NCBI GenBank assembly: GCA_040285825.1
Contig: JAUPSS010000013.1
Coordinates: 62,001 to 126,000 of the forward strand
Length of the DNA: 64,000 nt
Direction of reading: 5' to 3'
Source of the DNA: Eukaryota sp. TZLM1-RC
Taxonomy: Eukaryota; Protista; Metamonada: BaSk clade
The translations under genes were made by a program, and so were the position numbers. This document shows, piece after piece, positions 8,280 to 53,625 of the stretch (the stretch's first letter is position 1; every line of letters starts with the position of its first letter). The notes beneath the pieces are model-generated. The model had not been told where the DNA came from. It was given only the letters and a program-made list of their open reading frames with translations, and searched no databases.

Positions 8280-8765
8280 TAATTATTAATTTATTACTTT
8301 CAAAAAACTAAAGAAAAAATTAAACTTGTAAATCTTCTTATCCCAAATCAACCAAAAAGAATTGACTGGAAGTTTTTCCTTCATACAAACGACCAAGAGA
8401 TAATAAAGCAGAAGACAATAACGATACAACACCTCAGAAAATTGAAAATACATTTCTGTTCTGCCAAAACGTTTTGTCAAAAATTCTTCCTGTTCGCTGT
8501 TTTACAATTTCAACAAAATCATCCAAGAAAGATAAAGCAAGTGGTCCAAGCGTGCCAAGTAAGGAAAAAGCAAATGAACAAAGGACATGATGAGTTCGGG
8601 ATTTAGCATTCAAGGAAACCAACTTTGCTTTATATTTATTAATTTTAGAATTTTCGGCAACAGACAGCGGATTTCTGTAAACCATTCTTGTGTTTTGATT
8701 GAGCCAATGGTATGAAAGAATTATTACACACATCAGTTGATCTCACATCAGTAATGATAGTCCAA
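8280..8765 (-). mobile_element. 3' fragment of RLE-type (CRE/SLACS-like) non-LTR retrotransposon
   Basis: FAFSLLGTLGPLALSFLDDF...FWQNRNVFSIF; nucleotide sequence closely matches 30790-31250. Confidence 0.85.
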
Positions 8766-13048: not shown

Positions 13049-14267
13049 TGTTTGTCTCTGGTATGAGGTGTAATAAGTGCATGTAGAGGTTGAGTCTAAT
13101 TGCTAAAACGGTGACATGTGACAGAGTCAAACATGTCAATAGACAACGGAGGTTCAACTAGTGGATCACTCAAGCATCAGCTTGAGTCTTGAGCTTAGTC
13201 CTGTTGTCTTGTTGAAAAGCGCTTCTTCACTTTGTGGTACCTACAGTTTGAATACAGCTTGATATTGAGCGATCCTCATTAATTTATATTATATTGTTAT
13301 TTTTACTTATTTCTTAATAGTTTTCATTTCATCGCAATTTCAGAAACATCCAAAAGAAACACCACCGATAGTGGGTATATAATCATTTTATCGCTACTCT
13401 ACAATCGGCTAACAGACTACCACTCATCTTGGCCATTTCTTTTTTATTGACAAACTTTGTGTATGAGTCATTGCAACTTGTGTAAACTATTTGATGCAAA
13501 AAGTGTTTTTTGGATGAGCCCTATTAAGGAAACTTGGGACTAAAAAACCTGAATTTTACCAGTTCCGAACTGGTATAATTTCAATCATCTTAGTTTACTG
13601 ATGATGAATAGAAATCTTTTTAAGCCACAGTTGATAAACTATTGAAATAAGGTGTCACTTTGTTACACAATATAACCAAAAAACAAACGAAAACTATTGA
13701 AAAACCACAACCAAAAAGAAGTTGGTGATTTTTTGATTTCTTTTTGATCATTTATGATAAGAACAACACCACAATTTTTTCACAGTCTTTTGTTAAAATG
13801 AGTTTTCTATTTATTAACCTTTTTGAAGCTTGGAAATAAACCTTTTTCTTTGCTTGAGCTTATTGGAAGTTTTTCCAACCGGTTGATACATTTTAGGTTA
13901 AAATATTGACAATTTTTGTGCACGTCACCCGAAACATCGAGTGGAAGAAACAGCATTATGTTTAAGAAATTTTGCTTTTGACACAATTTTATTATTTTGT
14001 AAATATCTTTTCCGGGCTGTGAGAAGGACACCAGTTTTGAAGCATTCATCACTCATTGAAGCTCTTTATCCAGTATGGCAACAATAGTTGAACGATTTTA
14101 AACCACAGAACAAAACCATTTGACGGAAACCAGTTTTTAAGAAACCATTTTTGATTACTAAGAATTAGATACTGCTAATGGATTCTGATGTGACCTTTGA
14201 GTGATTTTTTTAATATATTTTTATTTATTCCAACAAAAACAAAAAAAGTGAACAAAGAGTGCTTTTT

Positions 14268-14913
14268 ACTTTTAGAAGCAAGGTTCATGATGCTGTAAGA
14301 GACCAGTTATATTGTATTTGTAAATCTCATAGAATTGAATCCTTCTTGGAACCTCTGTTGTCAAATCTGTTTGATGCTGAAAATGATTTTCATAAGAATA
14401 ATAGAGGTGATGTCATATTACCTGGATTAGATGGAAGCTTCATTTTATTGGATGTAATGTCTGCTGATCCTTGTAATGCCTCAAATGAAAGGCTTGTTAA
14501 TTCTGAAATTCATAATCCCCTTTCAAATGCTGAAAATTTTAAATTCAAAAAATACAATGAACCTTTGTTGAAATTGGCCAGTCTACAGCATGCAAAATAC
14601 AATTTGTATCCATTTGTATTTTCCCTTTTTGGTTCACTTGCATCAACTGCTTTACGTTTTTTGGATGATTTTGAAATGATTGTAAAGAGAAGAACTGGCA
14701 GAAATTTCAACAGATTGTTTTGGCAAAATAGAATTGTGTTTTCTATTTTTAAGGGGATGTTGAAGATGGTTTCTGATGCTTTGCTTTCTCTTGGATCTCA
14801 CTATGAGAGAGTTGCATCTAGTATTTTTGTTTTGAGAGAGATGGATTTTTTAGATGTTGATTTATAGGTTTTGAATAAAATTCAAATTTAAATAAAAAAA
14901 AGTTTATGAAAAA
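14268..14913 (+). mobile_element. 5'-truncated RLE non-LTR retrotransposon insertion with 14-bp target-site duplication
   Basis: ORF with HDAVRD, EP, RGD, LDV, KxKKY and PFVFSLFG endonuclease motifs; A-rich tail; AAAGAGTGCTTTTT at both 14254-14267 and 14914-14927. Confidence 0.9.
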
Positions 14914-16954: not shown

Positions 16955-17775
16955 ATGGTTTCAGCAACAATTGTAGTAACTATTATCACTTTGTTATTAT
17001 GCTTTGTGGTCTTATCGATGCGATTAGTCAAGGATTCGGTAGAGCAGTTTATTGAGCGAGATCCTGCAGCTTCATCCAAGCTTATTGTCTTTCTTACATA
17101 TCCTGGTGTACATGCGTTATTACTTCATCGCATATCTCACTTTTTAACAGGTCATCAGTTGGTTTTCTTGGCACATATTGTTGCATATGTATCTCGTGTC
17201 ATTACATCCATTGAGATCCACCCCCAAGCTACTATTGGCAAGGGGTTGATGATTGATCATGGAAGTGGAGTCGTTATTGGTGCTACTGCGATCATTCACA
17301 ACAATGTAACCATTTATTCTAGTGTTGGTATGATATGTCTCCACTTACCTTAGTGTTAGGAGGACGTGCTCCTTCCAAAGCTGAAGTACATAGCAAAAGA
17401 CACCCAACCCTATGTGATGATGCTACCATTGGTTGTGGATCAACCGTTCTAGGTAATATTCGGATAGGCGTTGGTTCCAAAGTTGGAAGTAATTCGGTTG
17501 TTCTTCAGGATGTTCCTGATTATCAAACTGTTGTTGGTATCCCAGCTAGACCTGTGGTCAGTAGTTCATCTCTGGTAAGAGAAAGACATTTTGAACCTTA
17601 TGGAATTTCAAGCAACAGTATTGATCCAATGTGTTTTGCCATCAAGTCCTTGGTTAGTCATGTTCGTCATCTAGAACAAAAGCTTGATGCTCTGGGAGGT
17701 TCTCATTACCCTTACGATGACGACTCATTGAATCAAATTATCCAATCCCTTGAGTGTGTCACTAAGAGATCCTGA
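16955..17775 (+). CDS. cysE: Serine O-acetyltransferase copy 1 (264 aa), intron 17328-17353 (26 nt), N-terminal hydrophobic anchor
   Basis: ERDPAA...YPGVHAL...IEIHPQATIG...IDHGSGVVIG...YSSVVLGG (spliced)...KRHPTL...VVGIPAR; left-handed beta-helix hexapeptides. Confidence 0.93.
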
Positions 17776-18679: not shown

Positions 18680-19890
18680 TGCATAGAAAAAGTACGAATC
18701 AAAAATAAGACCAATTGCAATAGGTGAATCATTATCTCGTAGTCTTTCTTCAGCTGTGTTTGGAAGGATTGGTAAAAAGCTAAAGATTTTTTAAGTCGTT
18801 GTCAATTTGGAATTCAAACAGTTGATCGAGCATCATCTGCACCATTGTCTTCTGATGCTTTCTTTATTTTAAGGAAATTCGAATAATATTTTTAATTTAG
18901 ATTTTACAGCACCTTCAATGCAGTGAAGAGGTCATCAATCTTGCCCTTGCTCCAAACTCATTATCTGGCAGCTAAGTCGTTCTTTCACAATGTTTATGGC
19001 TCTCAGTCAACACTTGTATAGGAGCACTTTAATTTGATATCATCATCTGCTGTCAAACAAGATGATCCATTAGGTCCTTTCTTTTTCTGCCTTGTTATCC
19101 ATCCTCTAATGTGTGAATTAAAACAACAATACCCAGAAAAAAAATTACAGCTTATATGGATGACATTTCAATAGTTGGTCCAATTGCTTCATTGAGAAAA
19201 GTTGCTAAAGTTGTTCAACAGCGCTATTATCAATTTGGTCTTTCTTTAAATATTTCCGAAAGTTTGCTGATTGGCAGAGAGCCTGTTGAACTTTTTCCTA
19301 ATGATTTAAGTGTTCCTTTCAACAACTATTTTGAATCAGGTTTTCGATTTTTAGGTTGTCATTTGGGTAACTTTGATGAAATTCGAATTCAACTTTCATC
19401 ACTTTCAGCAAATTTTGAACAGGAACTTGTTGTTCTTTTAGATTTGGATCTTGAAAAACATCTCAAATTCTTATTTTTCAGAATTTATTATTCAGGAAAA
19501 ATTACTCATATCCTACAATCAACCACTTTTCAATATATCTTGAATTTTGCAGAATTGTTAACGAATTAAAAACAAAATTTTTGACTAATTTACTTGAAAT
19601 TGATTCTTCATATGTCAGTAATCATATTTTTTGTAGCACCGAATCAAGCGGCCTACATTTTCACAAATCCAAATATTTGTATAAAGCTGCATTTATTTTC
19701 GGAGGCAAATATTTTATTTTTGAATTTTTGAAACGTTTTCCTGAAAACCAACATCTAATAGAACATTGTATTAGTGATTATGTGATGTCTTTGCAGAATG
19801 AAAGCGAATGCCTCTCTCCTCAAATATGCTCTAAATGCTTTCCTCCCGATGTTCAAAAAATTCCACCCAGAAGTTTGGTTTTTTAAGCAT
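18680..19890 (+). mobile_element. Degenerate reverse transcriptase region of CRE/SLACS-like non-LTR element
   Basis: KIRPIAIGE, QFGI, KQDDPLGPFFFCLVIHP (QGDPL-like), AYMDDISIVG and FRFLGCHLG; several frameshifts. Confidence 0.88.
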
Positions 19891-20474: not shown

Positions 20475-21334
20475 ATGTTGAGTACTTTGATTGTCTCCAT
20501 TGGGTCACTGATTCTACTGTTCTTGTATTTGTCTTTTCAAATAGTCAAGGATTCGGTAGAGCAGTTTATTGAGCGAGATCCTGCTGCTTCATCCAAGCTT
20601 ATTGTCTTTCTTACATATCCTGGAGTACATGCGTTATTACTTCATCGCATATCTCACTTTTTAACAAGACATCATGTGAAATTCTTGGCACATATTGTTG
20701 CATATGTATCTCGTGTCATTACATCCATTGAGATCCACCCCCAAGCCACTATTGGCAGGGGGTTGATGATTGATCATGGAAGTGGTGTCGTTATTGGTGC
20801 TACTGCGATCATTCACAACAATGTAACCATTTATTCTAGTGTTGGTATGATATGTCTCCACTTACCTTAGTGTTAGGAGGACGTGCTCCTTCCAAAGCTG
20901 AAGTACATAGCAAAAGACACCCAACCCTATGTGATGATGCTACCATTGGTTGTGGATCAACCGTTCTAGGTAATATTCGGATAGGCGTTGGTTCCAAAGT
21001 TGGAAGTAATTCAGTTGTTCTTCAGGATGTTCCTGATTATCAAACTGTTGTTGGTATCCCAGCCCGGCAGGTTATAACAAAAGCTTCAAAGAAAAGTCCA
21101 GCTTCATCTGAAAAGCGTTTTCAACCTTATGGGTTACCATCTCGTGAGACCACATTCCCTATGTGTTTTGCCATTAAGACATTGGTACGCCACCTACATC
21201 GTCTTGAACAGAAGGTCGGTAAGCCATGTTCAAATGACAATGACTCTGGAGAGGATGATTCTCTTGATCAGATTATGGCTTTGATATCTAGTAGTTGTTC
21301 AGAGAAGTCCAGTGATCCAGAGTACTCAATTTGA
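20475..21334 (+). CDS. cysE: Serine O-acetyltransferase copy 2 (277 aa), intron 20845-20870 (26 nt)
   Basis: Same motifs as copy 1; N-terminal hydrophobic segment; ends PEYSI. Confidence 0.93.
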
Positions 21335-22014
21335 GGTTTAATTTATTTCCCATTATTGATTAATAAAATCTTAGTAAAGCTTGGTTTTTTTCCAAGTCTA
21401 GGTGATCTATAAAATCATTTTCACCACATAGTCAATTTTTATTATATGATTGATAACATTTCTAGATGAATGAGATACTTTTGATGACTATTCTGTTCTA
21501 TTCAGCTTCTGTTGAAACTTTAGTTACATTGCTAATTCTAATCTTGTTGTCACTTGTGTATTCAAAGAAATGTTCGCCAGATTGATGAAACAGCACAGCT
21601 TGGGTCATAATAAAGGAAATCAACATTTCTGTACACTTTCTAACTGTCTATTAACTCTAACACCATTTCTCACAAAACTGAAACATATAATAAATATATA
21701 TTACATCGGTTTACTGCCATTCTAGTTGTAGGCTATAATGGAGATCTAGGTATCAAGATATGATATAATTATCAACTATGTTCATAATAAAAAATTTGAA
21801 CTTAACGCAGTCCAAGTACATCAACTATTGCTTGAATACATCTGACTTTGTATTCAGCTCAATTCACCAACAAATGTTCCAGCCATTAGTTTCTTATCAC
21901 GAAGATTTTTCGATTTATCAATGTTTTGTCACTTTATTATGAGAAAACAATCACTATTTCCAAAGAGTATTGAAATGGAGAACTTCAGTTATCAATTGAA
22001 AAAGTCATTCAAAC

Positions 22015-23697
22015 ATGTCAACCATCCTTGTCAAGCTTCCCTCTGGAAAGTCTGTGGAGTATCCTATTTACACCACTGGACTCACTATCCTCAAGGATCT
22101 CAATCCTGAAACATCTTCTATTGATGATGTAGCTGTTGTCCTCATCAATGGACAAATCTACTCTCTCAATGATCCTATTGACATTAACTGTACTTTCAAA
22201 CCTGTTGCTTTCAACACCTCTATTGGATGTGATGTTTACCGCCGTTCTCTTTGCTATGCAGTTGCTATGGTTGCTTCTGAACTGTGGCCTACAAGAAGGT
22301 TGATCATCTCCCACTCTATTGGCCATGGTTTGTCATTTCCATTTACATCTCACTATAGGCCTCTACTACTATTTCGATGGAGTTGAAACCACCAATGATG
22401 ACATTGTTGCACTCAACACTAGACTGCAAAAGCTCTCCAAGGATGCTCTTCCCATTTACCGCAAGACTCTTGCCTATGAAGAAGCAGTTGAACATTTCAA
22501 GCAAGCTGGTCTTTCCCAAACTGTTCTATTACTGGAACATAAGAACGAACCCCGAGTTTACGTATCAACTTGCGGTAACTACTTTGATTTATGGTACGCC
22601 CCTCTAGTCCAGAACACCTCGGCATTGAGTGTTTTTTCCATTGAAAAGTACCAGGAAGGATTGTTGATTAGGTATCCCGACAGCAAGGATCCTTCTTCTC
22701 TTCCTCCCTTTGTTGACAATCCCGTTCTTTATAAAGTTTATAAGGAACACAACCAATGGGGAGCTTGTCTTGACGTGAATTGTGTTGGTGATTTAAATCA
22801 TTTAATATTTAAGGGTAATATTAAAGACTTTATTATGGTTTCAGAAGCTCTTCACGATGGAAAAACTGCCGCAATTGCTGATAAAGTTCCTTCTAGTTGC
22901 AAATTAGTTTGTATTTGTGGCCCTTCTTCTTCAGGAAAAACCACCTTTTGTCGGAAACTTTCAATAGCTTTACGAGCAAGGGGATGGAAACCCATTTCTA
23001 TTTCCTTAGATGATTATTATGTAAATAGAGTTGATACTCCTTTGGATGAGGATGGTAACTGGGATTTCGAAGTAGTAGATGCTTTGGATTTGAAGCTTTT
23101 GAATAATGATTTAGTTGAATTATTCAAGGGAAAAACCATTAGATTACCAAAGTTCAATTTCAAAACTGGTATCAGAGAAGAGGGTGGTTTATTAACATTA
23201 CCAGAAAAAGGGGTGTTGATTATTGAGGGTATTCATGGTTTAAATCCAAGATTAACTGAAAAAGTTCCTGATGATGTCAAGTTTAAAATATTTATTTCTC
23301 CATTAACTCAATTGAATATTGATGATCACAACAGGATTTCCACTTCTGATAATAGGTTAATCAGAAGAATGGTAAGAGATAAGCAATTCAGGGTTATTCC
23401 GCTGAAGAAACCTTTGAAATGTTTCCGAGAGTTCGAAGGGGAGAAGACCTTTATATTTATAGATATCAAGGGGATGCTGATGCTGTTTTCAATTCAGCTT
23501 TGGATTATGAAATTTCTGTTTTAAAAGTATTGGCGGTTCCTCTTTTGCAGCAGATTAAGCCTTCTAGTATTTATTACTCAGAAGCTCGTAGATTGTTGGA
23601 CTTTTTGTCTCATTTTGATGCTATTATGAATGATGATGTTCCTTCAAATAGTCTGATTAGAGAGTTTATTGGTGGTGGCTGTTTCAATGTTCATTAG
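22015..23697 (+). CDS. udk: Bacterial-type ThrRS-N-terminal-like / uridine kinase (nucleoside kinase) copy A; intron 22328-22358; apparent 1-nt deletion at ~23391
   Basis: TGS-like start, YRRSL, ICGPSSSGKTTF P-loop, ISLDDYY, IIEGIHGLN, TSDNRLIRRMVRD, SLIREFIGG; GGG here versus GGGG in copy B shifts the frame. Confidence 0.85.
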
Positions 23698-23771
23698 GTA
23701 AATAAATTAAATAGTTTTTTGTTTTAGTTGGTGGAAAATTGACAATAGAAATTTACACAATGATTTGTCTG

Positions 23772-24120
23772 TTACTATTGAAGAAGCTAATGCTGATAGA
23801 AATACACCACTAGTTTTTATTGCTTTTCCATTTTCGATAAATGGAAGATTATCAGTTGAAGCAGAAACTTTTTTGAATGACTTCCAAAAAATGGTTCAAG
23901 AAAAAACAATGAAAAGATTTGATATTTTTTTATGGCGTTCTCGAATTCAATTTGCCAATATTAATAGATTACCTCGGTTTTTCAATCGAATTAGAGAAGA
24001 CTGTCTTTAGGTAGACAGCAAGTAGATCATATTTTTGTAGAGGAAATCTTGGTTCAATGAATTTCGTCCCATTAGTTGAGATTTTATTTTGTCAAGTGTA
24101 CAAGTTCAATAAATGAATGT
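23772..24120 (+). mobile_element. Divergent RLE non-LTR 3' fragment in the palindrome spacer
   Basis: FIAFPFSINGRLSVEAETFLNDF...WRSRIQFA resembles the PFVFSLFG...FLDDF...WQNRIVFS block of the other copies. Confidence 0.7.
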
Positions 24121-24540
24121 TAATAACTTGGACGAGTGCAAAACATGTGGTACAATTCACCATTGCTAACTACACTTTTTATTGAATTAGTATAGTTAAT
24201 AATGATGAGTCATAAATGACCTTCTAATTAACCACGTAAGAAATCTTTATCGGATTTAGAAGTGAAAAGAAAAATATTTGCCAAAATATTTTCGCTTTTT
24301 GTTAAAGAACTAACATTACTAATACACTTTAACATGTAAGTGATCAGATGTATATCGAAATATTTGGAAGAAGAGCATGAAGTAGAGACCGAAACTAGGT
24401 GAGGTGTCAGCAGTATTGAGCTTGCAATTAATTCATCCATGAATGTATTTGCTGCTGATAACCTATCAGACAAATCATTGTGTAAATTTCTATTGTCAAT
24501 TTTCCACCAACTAAAACAAAAAACTATTTAATTTATTTAC

Positions 24541-26224
24541 CTAATGAACATTGAAACAGCCACCACCAATAAACTCTCTAATCAGACTATTTGAAGGAAC
24601 ATCATCATTCATAATAGCATCAAAATGAGACAAAAAGTCCAACAATCTACGAGCTTCTGAGTAATAAATACTAGAAGGCTTAATCTGCTGCAAAAGAGGA
24701 ACCGCCAATACTTTTAAAACAGAAATTTCATAATCCAAAGCTGAATTGAAAACAGCATCAGCATCCCCTTGATATCTATAAATATAAAGGTCTTCTCCCC
24801 TTCGAACTCTCGGAAACATTTCAAAGGTTTCTTCAGCGGAATAACCCCTGAATTGCTTATCTCTTACCATTCTTCTGATTAACCTATTATCAGAAGTGGA
24901 AATCCTGTTGTGATCATCAATATTCAATTGAGTTAATGGAGAAATAAATATTTTAAACTTGACATCATCAGGAACTTTTTCAGTTAATCTTGGATTTAAA
25001 CCATGAATACCCTCAATAATCAACACCCCTTTTTCTGGTAATGTTAATAAACCACCCTCTTCTCTGATACCAGTTTTGAAATTGAACTTTGGTAATCTAA
25101 TGGTTTTTCCCTTGAATAATTCAACTAAATCATTATTCAAAAGCTTCAAATCCAAAGCATCTACTACTTCGAAATCCCAGTTACCATCCTCATCCAAAGG
25201 AGTATCAACTCTATTTACATAATAATCATCTAAGGAAATAGAAATGGGTTTCCATCCCCTTGCTCGTAAAGCTATTGAAAGTTTCCGACAAAAGGTGGTT
25301 TTTCCTGAAGAAGAAGGGCCACAAATACAAACTAATTTGCAACTAGAAGGAACTTTATCAGCAATTGCGGCAGTTTTTCCATCGTGAAGAGCTTCTGAAA
25401 CCATAATAAAGTCTTTAATATTACCCTTACATATTAAATGATTTAAATCACCAACGCAATTCACGTCAAGACAAGCTCCCCATTGGTTGTGTTCCTTATA
25501 AACTTTATAAAGAACGGGATTGTCAACAAAAGGAGGAAGAGAAGAAGGATCCTTGCTGTCGGGATACCTAATCAACAATCCTTCCTGGTACTTTTCAATG
25601 GAAAAAACACTCAATGCTGAGGTGTTCTGGACTAGAGGGGCGTACCATAGATCAAAGTAGTTACCGCAAGTTGATACGTAAACTCGGGGTTCGTTCTTAT
25701 GTTCCAGTAATAGAACAGTTTGGGAAAGACCAGCTTGCTTGAAATGTTCAACTGCTTCTTCATAGGCAAGAGTCTTGCGGTAAATGGGAAGAGCATCCTT
25801 GGAGAGCTGTTGCAGTCTATTGTTGAGAGCAATAATGTCATCATTGGTGGTTTCAACTCCATCGAAATAGTAGTAGAGGCCTATAGTGAGATGTAAATGG
25901 AAATGACAAACCATGGCCAATAGAGTGGGAGATGATCAACCTTCTTGTAGGCCACAGTTCAGAAGCAACCATAGCAACTGCATAGCAAAGAGAACGGCGG
26001 TAAACATCACATCCAATAGAGGTGTTGAAAGCAACAGGTTTGAAAGTACAGTTAATGTCAATAGGATCATTGAGAGAGTAGATTTGTCCATTGATGAGGA
26101 CAACAGCTACATCATCAATAGAAGATGTTTCAGGATTGAGATCCTTGAGGATAGTGAGTCCAGTGGTGTAAATAGGATACTCCACAGACTTTCCAGAGGG
26201 AAGCTTGACAAGGATGGTTGACAT
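24541..26224 (-). CDS. udk: Bacterial-type ThrRS-N-terminal-like / uridine kinase copy B (550 aa), intron 25881-25911 (31 nt)
   Basis: Intact after splicing (HSIGHG-LYYYFDG); 1653 nt CDS; P-loop kinase motifs as in copy A. Confidence 0.92.
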
Positions 26225-26386
26225 GTTTGAATGACTTTTTCAATTGATAACTGAAGTTCTCCATTTCAATACTCTTTGGAAATAGTGATTGTTTTCTCAT
26301 AATAAAGTGACAAAACATTGATAAATCGAAAAATCTTCGTGATAAGAAACTAATGGCTGGAAGATTTGTTGGTGAATTGGGGGATG

Positions 26387-27972: not shown

Positions 27973-28410
27973 GACGGATAAAGTGAGTTGTATTCAAGCA
28001 ATAGTTGATGTACTTAACCCAAAATGGGTTTCAAATGGGAATAAAATGATATGTAAGATATACTTTAAAAGTAATGCAAGGGTATAGGTTGGTGACAAGG
28101 CAGCTTGAACATAAATAATTAGACTGAAGCAATAATGCCAAGTGAATTAACTTTGGGTTGAGCTTTTGTATAATTAAGTTGAAACAAAACAAGTTTTATG
28201 AATTGAATTGATTGTGGAAACGATGAAGAAAATAAGAACATTCATTTATTTGGAATTATCAATCAAATAGATTTACATAATGCAATGACTTGCTCCCAAA
28301 ACTGAGTGTGAAAATAACTAGGCAAAATGCAAAGGTGAAAAAAGTGTTTCCATATTATCTTCAGTATCATAAACTAGAAACACAATCAAAAATGGGGAAT
28401 AAATTAATCC

Positions 28411-29270
28411 TCAAATAGAATACTCGGGATAATTGGACTTTTCTGCACAATTACAATATATCAAAGCCATAATCTGATCAAGAGAGTCGTCCTCTCCAGA
28501 GTCATTGTGATTTGAACAGGGCTTACCAACCTTCTGTTCAAGACGATGTAGGTGGCGTACCAATGTCTTAATGGCAAAACACATAGGGAATGTGGCCCCA
28601 GACGATGGCATCCCATAAGGTTGAAAACGCTTTTCAGATGAAGCTGGACTTTTCTTTGAAGCTTTTGTTATAACCTGCCGGGCTGGGATACCAACAACAG
28701 TTTGATAATCAGGAACATCCTGAAGAACAACTGAATTACTTCCAACTTTGGAACCAACGCCTATCCGAATATTTCCTAGAACGGTTGATCCACAACCAAT
28801 GGTAGCATCATCACATAGGGTTGGGTGTCTTTTGCTATGTACTTCAGCTTTGGAAGGAGCACGTCCTCCTAACACTAAGGTAAGTGGAGACATATCATAC
28901 CAACACTAGAATAAATGGTTACATTGTTGTGAATGATCGCAGTAGCACCAATAACGACTCCACTTCCATGATCAATCATCAACCCCCTGCCAATAGTGGC
29001 TTGGGGGTGGATCTCAATGGATGTAATGACACGAGATACATATGCAACAATATGTGCCAAGAATTTCGAATGATGATTTGTTAAAAAGTGAGATATGCGA
29101 TGGAGTAATAACGCATGTACTCCAGGATATGTAAGAAAGACAATAAGCTTGGATGAAGCAGCAGGATCTCGCTCTATAAACTGCTCTACCGAGTCCTTGA
29201 CTATTTGAAAAGACAAATACAAGACCAGTAGAATCAGTGACACAATAGAGACAACAAATGTGCCATACAT
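28411..29270 (-). CDS. cysE: Serine O-acetyltransferase copy 3 (277 aa), intron 28875-28900 (26 nt)
   Basis: Inverted near-copy of copy 2; starts MYGTFVVSIVSLILL; ends PEYSI. Confidence 0.93.
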
Positions 29271-29602: not shown

Positions 29603-29876
29603 TTTAGAATACGGTAGTGCAGTATTCCAGTAATGACTGAGAATAATTAAAAGGGTTCAACTTGTATAGATATCTACAAAGACTTGAATGAGAGTTTGAA
29701 AGATTGTTGATTGTCAATTTGGCAAGCAATGGCAAAAAGAAGTTTGTGATTATTATTTTTTTAAGGGCAAGAGATAGCATCTAATCTAAAAATGTTGATT
29801 TGATTAGTGTATTTAAAAGATTAAATATATTTTAAAAGTAGATTGTTTGAGTTTGAAAATCACAAAATAATAGTTG

Positions 29877-30274
29877 AAAGGCTTGTTAATTCTGAAATTC
29901 ATAATCCCCTTTCAAATGCTGAAAATTTTAAATTCAAAAAATACAATGAACCTTTGTCCAAATTGGCCAGTCTACAGCATGCAAAATACAATTTGTATCC
30001 ATTTGTATTTTCCCTTTTTGGTTCACTTGCACCAACTGCTTTACGTTTTTTGGATGATTTTGAAATGATTGTAAAGAGAAGAACTGGCAGAAATTTCAAC
30101 AGATTGTTTTGGCAAAATAGAATTGTGTTTTCTATTTTTAAGGGGATGTTGAAGATGGTTTCTGATGCTTTGCTTTCTCTTGGATCTCACTATGAGAGAG
30201 TTGCATCTAGTGTTTTTGTTTTGGGAGAGATGGATTTTTTTAGATGTTGATTTATAGGTTTAGAATAAAATTAA

Positions 30275-30307
<33 letters not shown>
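29877..30307 (+). mobile_element. Young 5'-truncated RLE non-LTR copy with 28-nt poly(A) tail
   Basis: Near-identical to 14488-14890; poly(A) at 30280-30307; AAAGGCT at both ends. Confidence 0.92.
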
Positions 30308-30310
<3 letters not shown>

Positions 30311-31260
30311 TGAAGCTGATTTCACAACTAATCTTTGTTATTCAACAGAGCAGTCACGTACTTACTGAATCACTAAATTATAACTAATTTTATATAAAAA
30401 GAGGTTTGTTAAATGATGTTAAATGGCAAATTAGTAATAAAATCATTAATCTTTTCAATTCCTCAAATTTATCGTCTTTTTGTAGATGATCCCACATTTT
30501 CTTGTACAATACGCCTTTTATATTTCATTTTGTTCAATAACGTGCCTCATCATTTTATTTGCAAATTTGGATCACAAATTTCTCCAAAACACCTGTTTAA
30601 TTGTAAACATTTTATTACTTTCTGATCAAAGGACTATGATGATGTTGAAGATCAACTCTACTGTATGTCAAAATTACACAAATTTTTTTTCCTATTTAGA
30701 ACCTTTACTCTCTCGTTTGGTTGATGAAGATAATTTGAATTCTTTTGGTCACAATAGTGGTAATTTTATGCTTGAAGGTCTTAAAATAACGACTATCATT
30801 ACTGATGTGAGATCCTCTGATGTGTGTAATAATTCTTTTATACCATTAGCTCAGTCAAAACACAAGAATCCGCTGTCTTGCCGAAAATTCTAAAATTAAT
30901 AAATAAAAAGCAAAGTTGGTATTTTTTAATGCTAAATCCCGAACTCATTATGTCCTTTGTTCATTTGCTTTTTTCCTTACTTGGCACGCTTGGACCACTT
31001 GCTTTATCTTTTTTGGATGATTTTGTTGAAATTGTAAAACAAGGTACAGGAAGAATTTTTGACAAAACGTTTTGGCAGAACAGAATTGTATTTTCAATTT
31101 TCTGAGGTGTTGTCCCGTTATTGTCTTCTGCTTTATTATCTCTTTCGTTTTTATGAAGGAAAAACTTCCAGTCAATACTTTTTGGCTGATTTGGGATAAG
31201 AAGATTTAGAATTTTAAGTTTAGTTGTTCGGACAAATTAAAAATAAAAGAAAAAAAATCT
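30308..31260 (+). mobile_element. Older degenerate RLE non-LTR copy (zinc knuckle plus endonuclease)
   Basis: CKFGSQISPKHLFNCKHF knuckle remnant, LEPLL, ITDV and FWQNRIVFSIF; stops and frameshifts. Confidence 0.85.
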
Positions 31261-45584: not shown

Positions 45585-46260
45585 TGAAACTATTTGCATC
45601 AAGCTTCCAAAGCTTCCAAGCTAACCAGATCTACAAGTCCAAATCCTTTTGAAGTTGGTCAATTGGTATTACGAGCTTCCAGCTCCTCCGCTAAGCTACA
45701 TGGAGATTATTTAGGACCATTTCTAATCACCGAAGTTGTATCCAATTCGTCTGTGAATATTAAGAATCTCTGCACCGGTACGATTGTCCAAGCTACCGTC
45801 AAACATTTAACACCCTGGCACTCAAGCCTGCCCACCAACGATGAGTTCCACTCATGGGTCGCTGCAGGTGATGTTGAAGAACACATCATTGAAAAGGTGC
45901 TTAGTCAGGACGGTTACTTTTGCCAAGTGCAATGGCCTGGAAAAGAGATCACCACTGAACACGTTTCTACAGTCCAAAATACTGCCGCGTATAAAGACTT
46001 CATCAAAACTTCAAAAGCACGTCGCCGTACTAAATCCGCTCCTCCCAAGAAGCGTACCAATTCCATTAGTTCACCTCCTGTGTCTAGAGCTTCCAGGGCT
46101 CGTCGCTCGAAAGAGAGGAAAAGGCAGTGTTAGTCTTGAATAGTATTTATAGTTTATTTATATAGTTTATTAGTATTTTGCCTATTAGCTTAAGAAGAGA
46201 GAATACGATTCCTCATCGTAATAATTTTCATTTTTTTTCATTGTATGTCGCAATCTAACG
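45585..46260 (+). mobile_element. 3' remnant of Ty3/gypsy chromovirus-like LTR retrotransposon (integrase C-terminus, chromodomain, PPT, 3' LTR start)
   Basis: FEVGQLVL...KLHGDYLGPFLI (GPY/F motif), IIEKVL...QVQWPG chromodomain-like; purine tract 46109-46127 followed by TGTTAG at 46128. Confidence 0.8.
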
Positions 46261-47451
46261 AGCAAAGACCATCAGAATATTGTTTCAGAAATATTTCAAA
46301 ATTGTCTAGAATGATTACACCTTCGTTTCCGATGGTACCAATAATTGAAAATGCAAGCGAATTGAAATGTGTCTGGAAGACCTGGCATTGAAACCGGTAA
46401 TGACCCGACCAGCGACTGACCTTTGCCTAGTTGACTGACCTTGTTGAACAGTTCGTGTAAACTATGACCATTGCCACGACGAGATATCATCGGTTCGCTG
46501 ACAATAGAATTGTGACCCTCCAGTTGTCGAGTATATTTTCTACCTGTCAGTGCCTATTTAGTATCATTGCAGAGTGAAATTGAATGCCTCTATCCTCGAA
46601 TCTGTTCCAGATTATTCTCTTGCTGACATTCAAGAAATTCTGTCCTGATGTTTGGTTTCATTAAGATTTGCATTCGCCATATTGCAGAAAATAATAAAAG
46701 TTTTTGAAAACTAGGATCTTATTGTTCGACTTACCATGACCAGTAAAAAGAATCCCGTTTGTGCTAACTTTTCAATTGTTGTAGTTCATTTGATGTAATT
46801 AAAAGTAGTTCAAGATATACAAAATGATAATCTGGCTTTCTCTGATTTTTGTTGGAACGCGTCTTTAATTACTCATTTTTTGCAAAGGTCTGGTTTATTT
46901 CTGGAAAGCGGTTTACTTCTTCATGATGCCACAATTTTGGCTGAATGACATCACTTTCAGTTGAAAACTTATTTGAGTTGAAACTATGGTGAGAGTTAAA
47001 GAAGTTTGAGTCTCTTAAGTAACAACAACTAGTCCAATCAGTGTTTTAAATTTTTTTGATTTTAATAAATATTAATTGTTAGTATAGTATGTTTTTCAAT
47101 ACTACATAACAAATACTCTAAATGCTGAGAAAATGGTGAATTTGTGAGCACAGAGCAAATTGGACTAGTAACACTGAAGCAGAATCATTTTTGATAATGT
47201 GGAAATGCAACAAGAATGTGGGAATGGAAAAGGAACGGATTCCAGTTTGATGACTCTATTGAACACCTTGCAGGAATCGTTTCAAGTTGAGATAATCTCC
47301 TGAACTGGACTCAACTGGACTGAACTGGATTCAATTTTTGAATTCTTCTATTTGGAGGTATTCAAACATGAATTACTTTTGTTTTAGAGAAAACTGGAGA
47401 TCCTATCAATCATCAAGGAAATTTACAGTGAATGAACTCTTTGTGAATCCA

Positions 47452-49957
47452 ATGTCCATCATTGGTATTGACCTTGGTACTACCAACAGCTGTGCTTACA
47501 CTTGTGAGCGGAATGGAACGTTTGTCAGTTCTGTTGTTGACTTCAATGGAACTGCCTCGATGCTGCTGATGAAAAGTATCCAACTCATAATTTACGTCAG
47601 AACTCATCGTTTAAGTCAAGATTACGTCACAGAGCGGAACAGGCACGGAAGAGCCTCTACACCGCAGAACACGCTCGTATTTCTCTCAAGGTTGCTAGAG
47701 CAGTTACATTTAGCCGAATGATTCATAGAAGTACATTTGAAAGTCTCTGTCAGCCCATGTTTGATCAATGTATGACGTTAGTTGCAGAACTTTTGAAGCG
47801 CAGAGGCCTGACTTCCAATGATGTAGCACAAGTTCTGCTAGTTGGACTTTTTACCAGAATTTCAAAAATACGTCAAATGTTGACAGATTCTTTTGGTATA
47901 GAGAAGGTAAAAGGAGACCTGAAACTAGACGAAGTTGTTGCTCGTGGAGCTTCTCTTGCTGTCAATAATGCTGAAGCAAATGAGAAAGTGGTGTTGTATC
48001 ACATAACAGCACGTCCCCTTAGAACTGATTTTCTTCGCCAATCTAAACTAATGGGGCTTTCATGCGATGACAACAGCTTAATCTCAGCGCTTTGTTCCAC
48101 AATATCCAATGTTCTTCTCAATCTTGCGGAATGGAACTGTGACAAGTTCGTCGATCAGGTGTGTCACCCGATTATGACTGCCGCTGAGCTCATCGCTAAA
48201 CATTCTGTAATTCTCAAGCCGTTAGGTAGTGTAATAACAGATGTACTCTCTGTCCTCAAACAAGTCAAGTACAACCGTTTTCAATCGGTGGTCTTAGCTG
48301 CCCGACTTCTTCGTCTTACCAAGGCTACCTTTTCTCCCTTAGAGAAGCTTCCCGATCTTTCCAACTCCCCCGCCATTCGCGACACCATTGATAACTTTGT
48401 AACTCTTACTAATAAAATCACCACATACTTAAACCAGTACAACGACTCAAAATGGTACAGAAAGGTCTTTTCCCGAGAGAGGTTCAAGAGAGATTTTGAA
48501 CAACACAACAAGCTTTTAGATGATTTTTCCTCTGAGTTGAATCTAGAGTTTTCTGGTATTGCACTTGAGAAGCTTTCTACTGTGTCATTCTCTAAGATAG
48601 AAGGCATCATTACTCGTGATGAAGAAGTTTTCAAGTTTGCATTAGCTACCTATAACCAGTCAATTCTAGATCAAATCAGTGAACAATATTCAGATTTAGT
48701 GCAGGAAATGCAGGCTACGATACAGACTACACTTAGAGAGGAAATTAAAACACAATCAATGTCTTGTTTGAAGGAAAAGGAAGAAAAGCAAGCAGAAATC
48801 ATCCAATTGCAGAGTTGTGCAGACAACGTTGAAATTGATATAGACAACGATGATCTTGTTGTGGATTGGAAGTCCAAAATTCACAGTGGCCAAGCAGAAG
48901 TCGTATTTGCAGAATACGGGTTAGCCAATGTTGCAATGAAATTTTTCAAGGATGATGAATACATTTCTGCCGATCTTGCAAGAGAGTACCGCATTTTAAA
49001 CTCTCTTCCCAATGTTCCTTCTGTTCCAAGAGTATATGGAATCGCTCGAGTCTATGAGAAAGGGGATGTTCGAATTGGGCTGGTTATGGAAAAACTTTCG
49101 ACTTTTACACAGAGATAAAGTAGGAAAAATTGAATCTGAGAAACAAAAAATTGATATTTTGATTTCATTAGCGAAAACATTGGCGACATGCCACGAATGC
49201 CATTTTCTTCAAAGGGACCTTAAGCCAGATAACATCTTGTTTAGAGACAGAGTTCCTGTAATGGGGCAGTGGGAAAAACACTGGTTCATCTAACATGTCT
49301 CTTTCTCTGGTGCAAAATAGAGTTATTACTCCCAGTTGGACCAGTCCAGAGCAAGCTTCAGGTGAAAGAATTCACAGTGACAGAATCGATGTTTTCTCAT
49401 TTGGACTAATTATGCTATTTGTCTTTACCGGTGAAAGTATCTGGCAAGGAATAGTAGATGGAAACCGTAAAAATCAAATTATTATCGATAACCTGATTTC
49501 TGGTAACATTCCATCTATTCCTCTGCATGAGGACTTACCTCTCAGTTTGTATCCTTTACTTTCCCAGTGTTTGGAGTTTGATTTTACCCAAAGACCAAGT
49601 ATGTCAGAGGTTTGGTCTGTTTTGACTGCTTACAAGAAGAAATTACGTGTTGTGGATTGTTTAACTTATGACAATATGCCACTTTGCCATTATGCACTTG
49701 CATTGATTGATAGTGATTACTTAAGTGATGTAGGTGTGGAAGTTCGTATGGAAATGTACCAGAAATTGTTGGACCTTTTTTCACAATGTTATTCCCAAAA
49801 ACTCGGAACTAGGTACCTTGCAATAATGAAATTTATTGAACAATCTGACCATTTAACCAATGACTTAATTCAAAAGAGAAAAGAAAGCGAATGTCTACTG
49901 AAACAAAGAATTGATGCTTTTGACAAAGTTCCTGTATGTGATGTATCTGTGGTATAG
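47452..49957 (+). pseudogene. Decayed Hsp70-NBD / MLKL-like four-helix bundle / protein kinase gene
   Basis: IGIDLGTTNS start, internal deletion, then RLRHRAEQARKSL...VLLVGLFTRI...DEVVARGA in frame with VKYNRFQSVVLAARL...KWYRKVF...FEQHNKLLDD, then kinase VAMK, QRDLKPDN, WTSPE and DVFSFG with frameshifts near 49100 and 49261. Confidence 0.8.
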
Positions 49958-50513
49958 GAATAAAATTCTCTATCTGTTCAATATGATTCATTAGGTTCTG
50001 TGCCAGTGAATGACAAGAAAAAAGAAGGTAAGCAGTTCAAATACCAGCAAAGTTCTGAGGAAAGTAGTAATATGGAGCACCAGGTTCTGTTGAATCACAA
50101 CGATTATACCGTTGAAGGTGTGACGCAACTAGCCTCACTCATGATATTTCAATCGTGATAGTTTTGTATAGTTTTTCCGCAACGCCATTGAGAATGAATG
50201 TAGTAGAGCATCCACACTTGCTCTTGGATCCTATACACCCTTTCTGATTTGAATCTTGGTTCTCATTGTAGGTCTTAGTGCATGTTTCATCATAAACAAT
50301 AAAAATAATGGACGTACATAAACATAGTTAAGAAAATCAATAAATCTAGACCCAACATTGATGTACCACCGAACGTGCCATAAATTTATTTAAACTATAT
50401 AGAGATAACAGAATTTGACCATTTCATCAGTTCTGTTCCAACTTTCATGATGCAAATAGCAATTCTGAACTTTATTGAGGCTAAATAGCAAAACGGTTAC
50501 CAGTAATTATCAA

Positions 50514-51450
50514 CTACTGAGAGTCTTGCTTTTGGGGTCTATCACGTGGACGTTTGACTTGAAGTGTTGCGAAGGCTGATGGATTTCTGTGTGTTCCTCT
50601 GGAATCAAGAGGTCGTCCTCTAGGTTTTTTTTGGTCTTGGGTGCTAAGGGTACTTCTTGAAGAAAGGTTTGAAATGAAAGGTAATACATTACGAAGATTT
50701 ATGGTACATTTGGGATGGTTATCCTCAGATTTCTGCAAGAACTTTGAAATTGACTTGGCCTTTTCAGGGTCATTGAAGAATAGATGATTAAGAAACCTCA
50801 GAGAAGAATTAAGCATTTATGCAACTATCAAAGATTCATTATTTGAATATTCCATTCTTGTCGCAAATTCAGCATCAATTTCTGATATTCTTCTATTAAT
50901 TTCGTCAATGTTGATAATACCTTCTTTATTTGTGTTTTAACGAACGTTTCATTGTTGCTCAGACCACATCCAAACCAAAATAGATGAAACTTACTGAGTA
51001 CAAACGCAGGACATAATGACAATAATGTTTCTGAGTTCTTCTAAAAAGCCTCGTTGTTCACTACAAGGGGGCAACAACAAACTGAGTTGGTTGAGACACC
51101 CCTTTTGTCAGCAAAATCTTGTTAAAATTCATATCCAAATAACCATATCCGCCATAAACATTTGATTTGGGTTCTTTAAGTGTAGCTTGAGGTTTCCTGT
51201 ACACAGGAGCATTAGCAGTGAAAAAGACTTCTGCTTTCTTTGCTGCATTTACTAATTTAGAAGAAAACTGATTTGCAAAGTTTTCTTCCAAGGGTTTGAG
51301 ATCTGTCTGTCCAATAAGGTTAGTACATCATAGAAGATGCTGTTGAAAGCGAGTTTTGGAAATGCTATACTTCATATAACCACAACGATCGCAAAAGAAG
51401 ACTCCTGTTGAGTTTGCAAAATCTTTCACTCAGACGAGATTCCATATGAA
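50514..51450 (-). mobile_element. Degenerate Mutator (MULE)-like transposase remnant
   Basis: C-terminal KKPRGRP...THRNPSAF resembles the RGRP...STKRxPSxFE tail of MULE transposases; upstream ORFs are fragmented. Confidence 0.45.
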
Positions 51451-52396
51451 TTATGAATATATAAGTGGATATATTAATAATAAATAATAACTCATAATAT
51501 TAATATATTTTTTATATTATTTAATATAATGAAATATGTGATATTATGGATATATACTATATCCATTATATGGGATGGTTGCTTTTTGTACTGTGAAACG
51601 AGAACCCTAAAAAACAGAGTGACTCATAGGGGAACAAAATTGTTTTGGAAAGTTGATACTGTATTGAACAATATGAATAAATCAACTAACTTTTATAAAT
51701 ATTTATTTATAAAAAAATAAATCAACTTGAATTTTTTTATTTTTTACTTGAATTACAAAAAAGTTTGGAATGTGTGTTTTAATTTTTGTATCTAGTTAAT
51801 TGGTAACAATTTGAAATTAGAACTATTCCAAAAATCATGATTTGTCATGAGATCATGACCTGATGTCCTGGTTTTCAACTGCAATGATGAAAATATTTCA
51901 CAATCTAAATAAATTGGTGATGACGTTGCATCACGCATAATTTTACTGGGTTATTCATGCAACACAGCTACCAGAAACAGGCAAAACACTTACTCAGAAA
52001 CATTGTTTATTTTTGGTTTCAATAGTGATTCAGGGTTTGACAATCGAACACATAAAATCTTATGATGGCCAACGTGAATTGACTGTTTAGATCCTTTGGT
52101 GGATAACAAAATAACGCAAGATCCACCCTACAAATGAAATAAACAAAACAAAAACTTGCTAATATCATAAAACAATAATTATGTAAAAAGTCAATCTTTA
52201 GTGAAAATAAAGAAAACAGTATTGAATACAATGATGAATGAGAACCCTATATTTTGATTTCTTAAATTATTCTTTTTTGAGCAGATGATGAATGTCCAAA
52301 TTCTGTAGCTTTCAGCTTTACAAACGACATACAAACTTCAACACTTGAAATCTAGAATTTACTGATTTTTTAAGAAAAAATGAAAAAAATTCTGGT

Positions 52397-52825
52397 TTAT
52401 TTGAACAATAAACACACTCTGTCCACTAAATACTGATGGTATCTTTCAAAAACAAATCCTAACACAGACCATTGCAAGAACATGTCCAACCGAATGGCCC
52501 CATACACACTCCATTTAGATTGGTAATGCCATGGTACTGAGCCAGTGGTAAGTTTCAATGTCATTCCAGTAGCAAACTCAAGTGCAAATATGCATACACA
52601 CCATAATAGAGGTCTGAGGATCGCAAGTAACTTCATAATGGGTACTTTCACTAGTTCCAATAGAATTCCACCCAATCCATATATAAGAAACATCCACAGA
52701 TAAGTTCTGGACACAAGCCGCGGATCTTTGGAGATCAATGATAGTGTCCCTGTGTATAACACCTCCATGAAGACCCCTAGCAGAGAATATGCAGCAAATC
52801 GTTGGTGAATGGGACGTTGTAGCAT
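52397..52825 (-). CDS. TMEM229 / CmpB-like small membrane protein (142 aa)
   Basis: YSLLGVFMEV, WMFLIYG, LEFATG, PWHY and GAIRLD motifs with 4 hydrophobic helices. Confidence 0.85.
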   Translation of the reverse strand: MLQRPIHQRFAAYSLLGVFMEVLYTGTLSLISKDPRLVSRTYLWMFLIYGLGGILLELVKVPIMKLLAILRPLLWCVCIFALEFATGMTLKLTTGSVPWHYQSKWSVYGAIRLDMFLQWSVLGFVFERYHQYLVDRVCLLFK

Positions 52826-53625
52826 CGAGGATATAATGGAAGATGTCTTACATTAATCAGTGAGTTGAGATATCTGGTAACAGAAAAAGTGTTTCTGTCA
52901 AATACCAAGAACGAGTGTAGACAGAGATTATGGATGGAGATGGTGGAGACGAGTCAGAACAACTCTGAGTGTGATGTACTCTCAGTTTCCACTATATTTT
53001 TATATCGAGACATTGATTGATGAAATAAATTGGTGTTTAAACAATAATATATTAAATAGGTTTTGGAAAATACAATTATTATGGTTCCAACTTTACAGTG
53101 AATATTGATAGAAACATTATTTTTCGCAAAATTAATTAATTATTTAATTAGTAAGTATTTCATTATATGCGATGGCTAAATCCGCTCACATGAAATTTCC
53201 TCAACACAGACTGATGGTTGCTACTTTTGGAGGGAATTGGTGGTGCAAGGAGAACATGGCCACTTCTGGAACTTTGTGTGTCTGATCATTCCTTTAATCC
53301 AATACGAAATTGTCGTGATAACCTCATATCAATCAAATATTTGTTTTTCCAACATTGAAGCCAACAACAGCAAAACAAGTTGCATCATCACTTATTCTGA
53401 AACCAGTCTTTGACTTCCTATCTTTAGTTGGATTGAAGCATTTATTGCTCTATATCATTTCTACTACTTTTCAGTGCTCTGACAATGTTCAATGAATCCG
53501 CTGTGAAGAAGACATTGATTTAATATCATTTTAAACAACTTAGCATGTTAAAATTTAAACAAACCCTAATCGAAAACATTCAAATTACTACAAATCAAAC
53601 TTTATTTACAGACAAAAAAACAATT

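What the first reader, a model, noticed from the sequence alone, without database searches (positions are those of the whole stretch)
47452..49957. Hsp70 nucleotide-binding domain joined in frame to an MLKL-like four-helix bundle and a kinase
Seen: one open frame runs from the Hsp70 NBD C-terminal half and interdomain linker (KVVLYHITARPL) into a segment (about 48205-48550) with the pattern VKxNxxQxxxLxxRL...Y...W..K.......F...N..L.D, then a coiled coil and a kinase retaining VAMK and RDLKPDN. The locus has an internal NBD deletion and two kinase frameshifts. Established: that pattern characterises the MLKL/HeLo-like N-terminal domain, a membrane-disrupting cell-death effector; animal MLKL has a pseudokinase. 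Inference: a relic of a necroptosis-like defence family in a unicellular eukaryote, with the Hsp70 substrate-binding domain replaced by an effector, possibly as an integrated sensor. Caveat: the junction may be an accidental deletion fusing two neighbours, with MGLSCDD as the second gene's start.
Basis: partly seen in the sequence, partly recalled or inferred. Interest (0 to 1): 0.7.

Follow-up and report, generated by a model that had tools for sequence, protein, structure and literature searches.

The report
Dead chimera from protist MLKL-kinase family
This broken gene joins a scrap of an Hsp70 chaperone gene to the first codon of an MLKL-like bundle-plus-kinase gene, likely by accident; its relatives carry no Hsp70 but form a family of at least 14 genes with interchangeable extra domains in anaerobic Skoliomonas protists, which would make them candidates for a cell-death defence.

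Summary
The domains are real, but the locus is a chimeric pseudogene. Bases 47553-48044 match residues 238-401 of a Skoliomonas Hsp70 that has a VWA domain inserted in its substrate-binding domain (72%). The Hsp70 start codon is out of frame after a ~206-codon deletion. Six bases after the Hsp70 match ends, ATG 48051 aligns with Met1 of an intact MLKL_N-coiled-coil-kinase-LRR protein (74%). The MLKL call holds by sequence (Pfam above cut-off; family profile collinear with full-length MLKL); the fold test is compatible, not diagnostic. The kinase has two frameshifts, one removing the DWG aspartate. Most likely a rearrangement joined a decaying Hsp70-VWA relic to a kinase-module copy that died later (0.7); a once-functional fusion is not excluded (0.13). 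The worthwhile result is the parent family: at least 14 genes in two Skoliomonas isolates, mostly with intact kinase motifs and varied LRR, RCC1, B-box or transmembrane additions. My searches found no paper on MLKL in metamonad genomes. Killing activity is untested.

The parts
47452..47552 (+). 5' end of an Hsp70-VWA gene copy (about residues 1-31, phosphate-1 motif GIDLGTT); read on in this frame it stops at 47719-47721 after 89 aa
   Evidence: tblastn of P0004 res 1-41, E 1e-10; frames
47545..47553 (+). Deletion joint in the NBD: about P0004 residues 32-237 missing, with a frame change; the 8-mer at 47545-47552 repeats 47512-47519
   Evidence: the missing middle has no tblastn hit better than E 0.65 in the window
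47553..48044 (+). Hsp70 NBD C-terminal part, interdomain linker and first substrate-binding-domain strand; matches P0004 238-401 at 72%; GGSTR reads GLFTR and HSLG reads RPLR
48045..48050 (+). Chimeric junction: 6 nt matching neither protein, likely 5' flank of the second gene; lies about 6 residues before the VWA domain starts in the donor
48051..48203 (+). Start codon of the MLKL-kinase module and a family-specific N-terminal extension of two helices ahead of the bundle
   Evidence: aligns with Met1 of P0001; alignment; model helices 7-19 and 30-51
48204..48566 (+). MLKL_N-type four-helix bundle (module residues 52-172)
   Evidence: Pfam PF22215 above cut-off; Atlas 0.95 to an MLKL_N cluster; model aligned to 6zvo 1-121, Z 8.1
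48567..48836 (+). Brace / coiled-coil-like helical linker
   Evidence: 68% to P0001 173-262; helix 180-208 in model
48837..49633 (+). Protein kinase domain in three frames: 2 nt short at 49110 and 8 nt short at 49261 (DWG aspartate lost); QRD in place of HRD; fused frame stops at 49116-49118
49634..49957 (+). Family-specific helical region after the kinase, ending at a stop aligned with P0001 residue 639; no LRR tail follows
   Evidence: tails of P0001-P0003 score no better than shuffles against 49955-51500

Best explanation
The locus is a broken chimera of two unrelated genes: a fragment of an Hsp70-VWA gene and a complete start of an MLKL-bundle-kinase gene, likely joined by a chance rearrangement and likely never a working fusion protein. 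Shown: two donors, the join at the second gene's own start codon, an out-of-frame Hsp70 start, two kinase frameshifts and no LRR tail. Inferred order: the Hsp70-VWA copy decayed first (long branch, motif loss); a deletion or ectopic repair placed it 6 nt before a bundle-kinase copy; that copy stayed under selection until recently and then took the frameshifts. Inferred function of the intact family: self-contained receptor kinases in which a variable domain (LRR, RCC1, B-box or membrane part) senses a signal, the kinase auto-phosphorylates, and the MLKL-type bundle is released to oligomerise at a membrane and kill or signal. I put lytic killing by the bundle at about 0.4, Pm13-like kinase signalling with the bundle as brake or decoy at about 0.4, and other roles at about 0.2.
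For: Module start equals Met1 of P0001, with a similar start in most relatives. 0 of 15 family proteins match Hsp70-VWA relatives by blastp, and none has a Pfam HSP70 hit among the 14 close members scanned (P0150 not scanned). A 623-2000 aa search with the bundle found 3 proteins, none with Hsp70. Hsp70-side searches (288-919 aa; 430-1369 aa) found four close relatives, all Hsp70-VWA, and no MLKL fusion but the window's own product. End branch of the Hsp70 piece is 0.29 against 0.084 for P0004; for the module it is 0.17 against 0.14. The module nests with P0001, P0002 and P0003, 3 of 3 LRR-tailed (97/96 support). The breaks remove 2 and 8 nt outside homopolymers, and the same window holds intact frames of 2299, 1170 and 1155 aa. 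The window has several segmental duplications and inversions. 11 of 12 kinase-bearing relatives keep HRDLKPxN and DWG.
Against: The join is in frame and falls close to a domain boundary of the donor (P0004 401; VWA starts at 408). The family does accept N-terminal additions: P0138 has about 600 residues (RCC1 repeats, a TM-like segment) before the same module start, and P0145 has about 170. The Hsp70 piece has no stop in 164 codons; neutral decay leaves it open with probability 0.17-0.64 depending on the assumed divergence. Relative-rate counts for the Hsp70 piece are not significant (12:10, 11:4, 12:4, 12:7, 10:9; p 0.08-1.0), and the module gives 62:43 (p 0.08) with one outgroup and 40:42 with the other. 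No DNA for relatives could be obtained, so gene models starting downstream of an unannotated Hsp70 part are not excluded.
Confidence: 0.7

Rival explanations
1. The fusion was once functional: the shuffling family captured a full Hsp70 nucleotide-binding domain as an N-terminal sensor or decoy that gated the bundle-kinase, and the gene later decayed.
For: In-frame join near the donor's VWA boundary. N-terminal capture at the same module start in P0138. The Hsp70 piece is still open (one search gives 0.17-0.21 at the highest divergence tried).
Against: No second example among 15 family proteins or 4 Hsp70-VWA relatives. The ATP-site loop and linker motif are altered, with a 3.5-fold longer branch than the donor's relative while the module is not accelerated. 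The module keeps its own Met and 6 unassigned bases. The join splits the substrate-binding domain after one strand. Large N-terminal fusions block killing by human MLKL constructs (PMC9709077, passages), though this family already has a 51-residue extension.
Confidence: 0.13
2. The locus still makes a shortened, kinase-less product (355 aa from 48051 or 466 aa from 47718) that works as a stand-alone bundle effector or dominant-negative regulator.
For: No lesion in 48051-49109; kinase-less relatives exist as gene models (P0135, P0140); the 466-aa product is in the protein collection as a predicted gene.
Against: Both frameshifts falling in the last 847 of 1906 nt has probability about 0.2 by chance. 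The product ends inside the kinase fold. Five ATGs (47452, 47513, 47546, 47560, 47569), all out of frame, precede 47718.
Confidence: 0.1
3. The chimera and its breaks are assembly or base-calling artefacts and the two genes are intact and separate in the cell.
For: Raw reads could not be checked. The region has near-identical duplicated segments that can confuse assemblers.
Against: The breaks are 2, 8 and about 620 nt and not in homopolymers. Motif substitutions accompany them. Very long genes nearby are error-free.
Confidence: 0.07

Closest known systems
Animal MLKL (necroptosis executioner; PDB 4btf, 6lk5, 6zvo)
   Same: Bundle-brace-kinase order; a profile of 11 Skoliomonas proteins aligns to 4btf 9-465 as one stretch from profile position 56 to 535 (E 1.9e-16); model residues 52-172 overlay MLKL 1-121.
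   Different: Kinase motifs are intact in 11 of 12 relatives (MLKL is a pseudokinase, PMC11476962 passages); a two-helix extension precedes the bundle; extra helical region and variable tails; no RIPK3-like partner looked for.
Wheat-relative Pm13 / MLKL-K kinase fusion proteins (PMC11297308)
   Same: MLKL N-terminal domain, brace and a putatively active Ser/Thr kinase; multi-copy family made by fusion and duplication.
   Different: The paper says MLKL-Ks occur only in Poaceae, and cell death came from brace plus kinase, not the bundle; no LRR, RCC1 or TM additions described in the parts I read (abstract, Discussion).
Fungal HeLo-like / basidiomycete MLKL-like / Goodbye-like domains and HELL-kinase proteins (PMC12881547, PMC9815663)
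   Same: Four-helix core with extra N-terminal helices as in Goodbye-like and basidiomycete forms; some HELL domains sit on kinases; the top three Atlas clusters are fungal.
   Different: No NACHT/NB-ARC domain in the Pfam scans of family members; amyloid motifs not tested. For the N-extended fungal forms the paper leaves killing activity open.
Hsp70-VWA fusion proteins (prokaryotic, e.g. P0086, P0035; Atlas clusters)
   Same: The donor of the 5' half is an Hsp70 with a VWA domain.
   Different: In the four Skoliomonas relatives VWA is inserted after the first strand of the substrate-binding domain; in P0086 and P0035 it follows that domain. The window keeps neither VWA nor the rest of the domain.

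Membership tests
MLKL_N domain (Pfam PF22215) | Profile score above the curated cut-off | tested here: met
   28.9 and 27.7 bits against 27 for the window; of 14 close relatives scanned, 3 pass the cut-off, 9 score 16-27 bits and 2 have no hit
MLKL_N domain (Pfam PF22215) | Four-helix-bundle fold matching solved MLKL | tested here: inconclusive
   Model pLDDT 82. Foldseek: no hit at E<=0.001; MLKL at ranks 27-28, E 0.65-0.69. VIA: 6zvo Z 8.1, rmsd 3.1, 115 aligned, rank 10, below CheA P1 at Z 11.1
Animal MLKL | Bundle-brace-kinase-fold order | tested here: met
Animal MLKL | Catalytically dead pseudokinase | tested here: not met
   11 of 12 kinase-bearing relatives keep HRDLKPxN and DWG; P0002 does not. 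The window copy is broken by frameshifts
Animal MLKL | Bundle begins at the protein N-terminus | tested here: not met
   51-residue two-helix extension before the MLKL-aligned part
Animal MLKL | Oligomerises and permeabilises membranes on phosphorylation | not testable with these tools
   needs expression assays
Skoliomonad bundle-kinase family (P0001 type, defined here) | Homologous extension, bundle, brace, kinase and helical core | tested here: met
   74% to P0001 over the core; nested in a 100/100 clade with P0001 and P0002
Skoliomonad bundle-kinase family (P0001 type, defined here) | Intact reading frame and catalytic motifs | tested here: not met
   two frameshifts, QRD, DWG aspartate lost
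   0 of 15 family proteins; none. Protein-level only; DNA of relatives not available
Functional Hsp70 | Complete NBD with ATP-site motifs and a substrate-binding domain | tested here: not met
   about 206 codons missing, GGSTR altered, substrate-binding domain absent from the window

The most novel reading that the evidence does not exclude
Skoliomonads run an MLKL-type immune system of one-protein death receptors: a conserved bundle-kinase core with interchangeable sensors. This locus records one such swap, in which an Hsp70 nucleotide-binding domain was captured as an integrated decoy and worked before the gene was inactivated. (The family-level half alone, lytic defence without a functional Hsp70 fusion, I put at about 0.4.)
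Probability: 0.12. Interest if true: 0.8.

Novelty: new variant of a known kind. Interest (0 to 1): 0.42.

Why it matters
The locus itself is most likely a dead end. The family it exposes matters more. MLKL-type bundles on kinases are described in animals, plants and fungi. A survey of 67 protists found no necroptosis homologs using human sequences as queries (PMC7539657, passages). Here at least 14 genes in two free-living anaerobic metamonad isolates carry the bundle, 12 with a kinase, and with varied LRR, RCC1, B-box and membrane additions, the pattern expected of diversifying receptors (inference). If the bundle kills, necroptosis-like machinery extends to a deep unicellular lineage and can be tested directly in yeast. 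The Hsp70 with VWA inserted in its substrate-binding domain, shared by three isolates, is a second lead.

Tried and rejected
No whole genome is held for the window. No sequencing run was listed, so expression and read support are untested. Contigs for P0001 and P0004 are not on record, so no DNA-level comparison or dN/dS was possible. A metagenome scan with the window protein found no relative among 276 pattern matches. A second scan gave 80 kept loci of 396 confirmed, all matching only the kinase region; the family bundle profile hit 0 of those 80. No viral-contig scan was obtained. Single-sequence folding was poor (pLDDT 47) and was not searched. Single-sequence phmmer of the bundle against PDB found no MLKL. 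The four-sequence profile A3 was dominated by P0140's LRRs and was uninformative. The profile included three distant MLKL-like proteins, so I rely. The wide VIA search never ran, so the fold ranking rests on Foldseek's top 1000. Introns as a cure for the breaks: GT-AG candidates exist, but all would cut out sequence that aligns with the relatives' proteins and none supplies missing codons. TAR=Gln recoding is not needed: a 2299-aa frame is open under the standard code. Insertion of the module into the Hsp70-VWA gene: the VWA and C-terminal parts have no hit better than E 0.6 in the window. LRR remnants after 49957: none above shuffles in 9 of 9 comparisons. P0139 (650 aa) has no tail either, so the missing tail alone is not proof of damage. 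Earlier-findings look-ups by this sequence and by place returned nothing.

Full report
Observation. The stop-to-stop frame 47541-49118 (525 aa) exists and hits Pfam HSP70 (E 2.9e-20) and MLKL_N (28.9 bits, cut-off 27); the kinase continues in two further frames to a stop at 49955-49957. The Hsp70 ATG at 47452 is in a different frame and ends after 89 aa; the first Met of the fused frame is 47718.

Two donors. The closest relative of the Hsp70 piece is P0004 (782 aa, labelled Eukaryota sp. TZLM1-RC). Window 47452-~47552 matches its first ~31 residues and 47553-48044 matches 238-401 at 72%, so about 206 codons are missing with a frame change. P0004 is an Hsp70 with a VWA domain (408-581) inserted after the first strand of the substrate-binding domain. 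P0016, P0017 (GEM-RC1) and P0018 (TZLM3-RCL) share this layout. These labels are Skoliomonas isolates, anaerobic metamonads (PMC11603281, passages); the window's organism is inferred to be of that lineage from protein identity only. Six bases after the Hsp70 match ends, ATG 48051 aligns with Met1 of P0001 (919 aa; MLKL_N, kinase, LRR), 74% over the core. Neither the middle of the NBD nor the VWA and C-terminal parts occur elsewhere in the window.

Lesions. Against P0001 the kinase is 2 nt short at 49110 and 8 nt short at 49261, the latter removing the DWG aspartate; HRD reads QRD. The breaks are not in homopolymers, and frames of 2299, 1170 and 1155 aa in the same window are intact, which argues for real lesions; reads were not available. 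No LRR tail follows, although the three nearest relatives have one.

Is it MLKL-like? Pfam passes the cut-off. The Atlas first hit is 0.95 with 210 shared features to a cluster in which 36% of members carry MLKL_N. A profile of 11 Skoliomonas proteins aligns to full-length MLKL 4btf in one stretch from bundle to kinase end (E 1.9e-16), though LRR proteins and LRRK2 rank higher because of the LRR and kinase parts. The model with a 19-sequence alignment has pLDDT 82. Foldseek gave nothing significant. VIA aligned residues 52-172 to MLKL 1-121 (Z 8.1, rmsd 3.1, 16% identity, tied for the highest identity in the list) but ranked CheA P1 first (Z 11.1). The fold is compatible and not diagnostic. 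Residues 1-51 form two extra helices, as described for fungal Goodbye-like and basidiomycete MLKL-like domains, whose killing activity is left open (PMC9815663, passages).

The family. An exhaustive HMMER search gave 18 hits at E<=0.001: the window's own product, 13 close relatives (E<=1.1e-9) and 4 distant MLKL_N proteins. Ten of the 13 were looked up and all are TZLM1-RC or GEM-RC1; P0002 and P0003 were already so labelled; P0143 was not looked up. With P0001 and P0150 this gives 15 proteins, 14 with Skoliomonas labels (P0151, a second product of P0145's gene, not counted). 12 of 15 have the kinase and 11 of those 12 keep HRDLKPxN and DWG. Additions vary: LRRs (P0001-P0003, P0140, P0145), RCC1 repeats (P0136), B-box (P0140, P0142), TM-like tails (P0137, P0141, P0142, P0144, P0150), and in P0138 RCC1 repeats and a TM-like segment before the module. 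0 of 15 match the Hsp70-VWA relatives. In a tree of 13 rows (kinase-less P0135, P0140, P0143 left out) the window groups with P0001 and P0002 (100/100), then P0003 (97/96).

Order of events (inferred). The Hsp70 piece has an end branch of 0.29 against 0.084 for P0004 and differs at 7 of 40 positions invariant in four relatives, including the GGSTR loop and HSLG. The module's branch is 0.17 against 0.14. This suggests the Hsp70 part was decaying while the module was still conserved. Relative-rate counts are not significant (p 0.08-1.0 for five outgroups). An open 164-codon relic is unremarkable under neutral decay (0.17-0.64). The window contains several duplicated and inverted segments at 91-99% identity, consistent with a rearrangement-prone region.

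Against my reading. The join is in frame, near a domain boundary, and P0138 shows that the module can be captured behind another protein. A once-working fusion therefore keeps 0.13. Human MLKL constructs lose killing with EGFP or SsrA at the N-terminus (PMC9709077, passages), but this family's own extension weakens that argument. All tests of relatives are at protein level.

Mechanism of the intact family (inferred). By analogy with MLKL (PMC11476962 and PMC12881547, passages) a variable domain would sense, the kinase would auto-phosphorylate, and the bundle would oligomerise at a membrane. In Pm13 the bundle did not kill and brace plus active kinase did (PMC11297308, abstract and Discussion), so a kinase-output model is about equally likely.

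Literature. Eight searches. 'MLKL' with 'metamonad' gave one paper, where MLKL occurs in a figure legend on a bacterial symbiont's effectors (10.64898/2026.04.11.717937, one passage). PMC7539657 reports no necroptosis homologs in 67 protists (passages). PMC11316075 has no occurrence of 'kinase' or 'pseudogene' in its main text (passages). PMC7159879 passages describe HSP70 in prokaryotic conflict systems but no such fusion. I found no description of this family or of an Hsp70-MLKL fusion in these searches; supplements were not read, and subscription papers are not covered. Two earlier unreviewed scan notes report MLKL-kinase-LRR in a fungus and a ROCO-MLKL in a marine protist; they are leads only.

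Verdict. A chimeric pseudogene (0.7) from a lineage-expanded MLKL-bundle-kinase family: a new variant of a known kind. Interest 0.42, mostly for the family.

Noticed in passing
P0004, P0016, P0017, P0018 (donor family of window 47452-48044): Hsp70 with a VWA domain inserted after the first strand of the substrate-binding domain, present in three Skoliomonas isolates; prokaryotic Hsp70-VWA proteins P0086 and P0035 carry VWA after that domain instead.
   Followed up: partly
P0016, P0017: Both GEM-RC1 Hsp70-VWA models lack most of the N-terminal NBD; P0017 starts almost exactly where the window's post-deletion piece starts (P0004 239). Gene-model error or recurrent truncation; DNA not available.
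   Followed up: no
P0138: Receptor-like layout: hydrophobic start (signal peptide by eye only), RCC1 repeats, TM-like segment at 508, then the bundle-kinase module.
   Followed up: partly
P0145 residues 82-125: Weak second match to the family bundle profile (i-E 7e-4 in a small set), hinting at a tandem bundle.
   Followed up: no
window 8316-31221: Cluster of segmental duplications and inversions: 21860-23774 inverted at 24464-26379 (99.4%, uridine-kinase/PRK family gene); three copies of a hexapeptide-repeat acetyltransferase-like segment (17025-17546, 20486-21361, 28384-29258); 14486-14901 repeated at 29875-30291; 8316-8762 inverted at 30791-31221.
   Followed up: partly
window 45588-46133 (+): 181-aa frame that by eye resembles the C-terminal end of an LTR-retrotransposon integrase with a chromodomain (recalled resemblance); no Pfam hit.
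   Followed up: partly
window 19117-19566 (+): Frame with a YMDD motif, reverse-transcriptase-like by eye (recalled); no Pfam hit.
   Followed up: partly
window 47300-47334 and 47512-47552: Three tandem 10-nt units upstream of the Hsp70 ATG (D4), and an 8-nt direct repeat flanking the deletion joint, possibly a repair footprint; significance not tested.
   Followed up: no
window 11156-13102 (-): RING finger, protein kinase and C2HC zinc finger in one 649-aa frame.
   Followed up: no
window 620-4084 (-): 1155-aa frame with H-type lectin domains and a weak glycosyltransferase-2 hit at the C-terminus.
   Followed up: no
window 52400-52852 (-): Membrane protein of Pfam ABC_trans_CmpB (44 bits, above cut-off), a family I recall as mainly bacterial; gene transfer not tested.
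   Followed up: no
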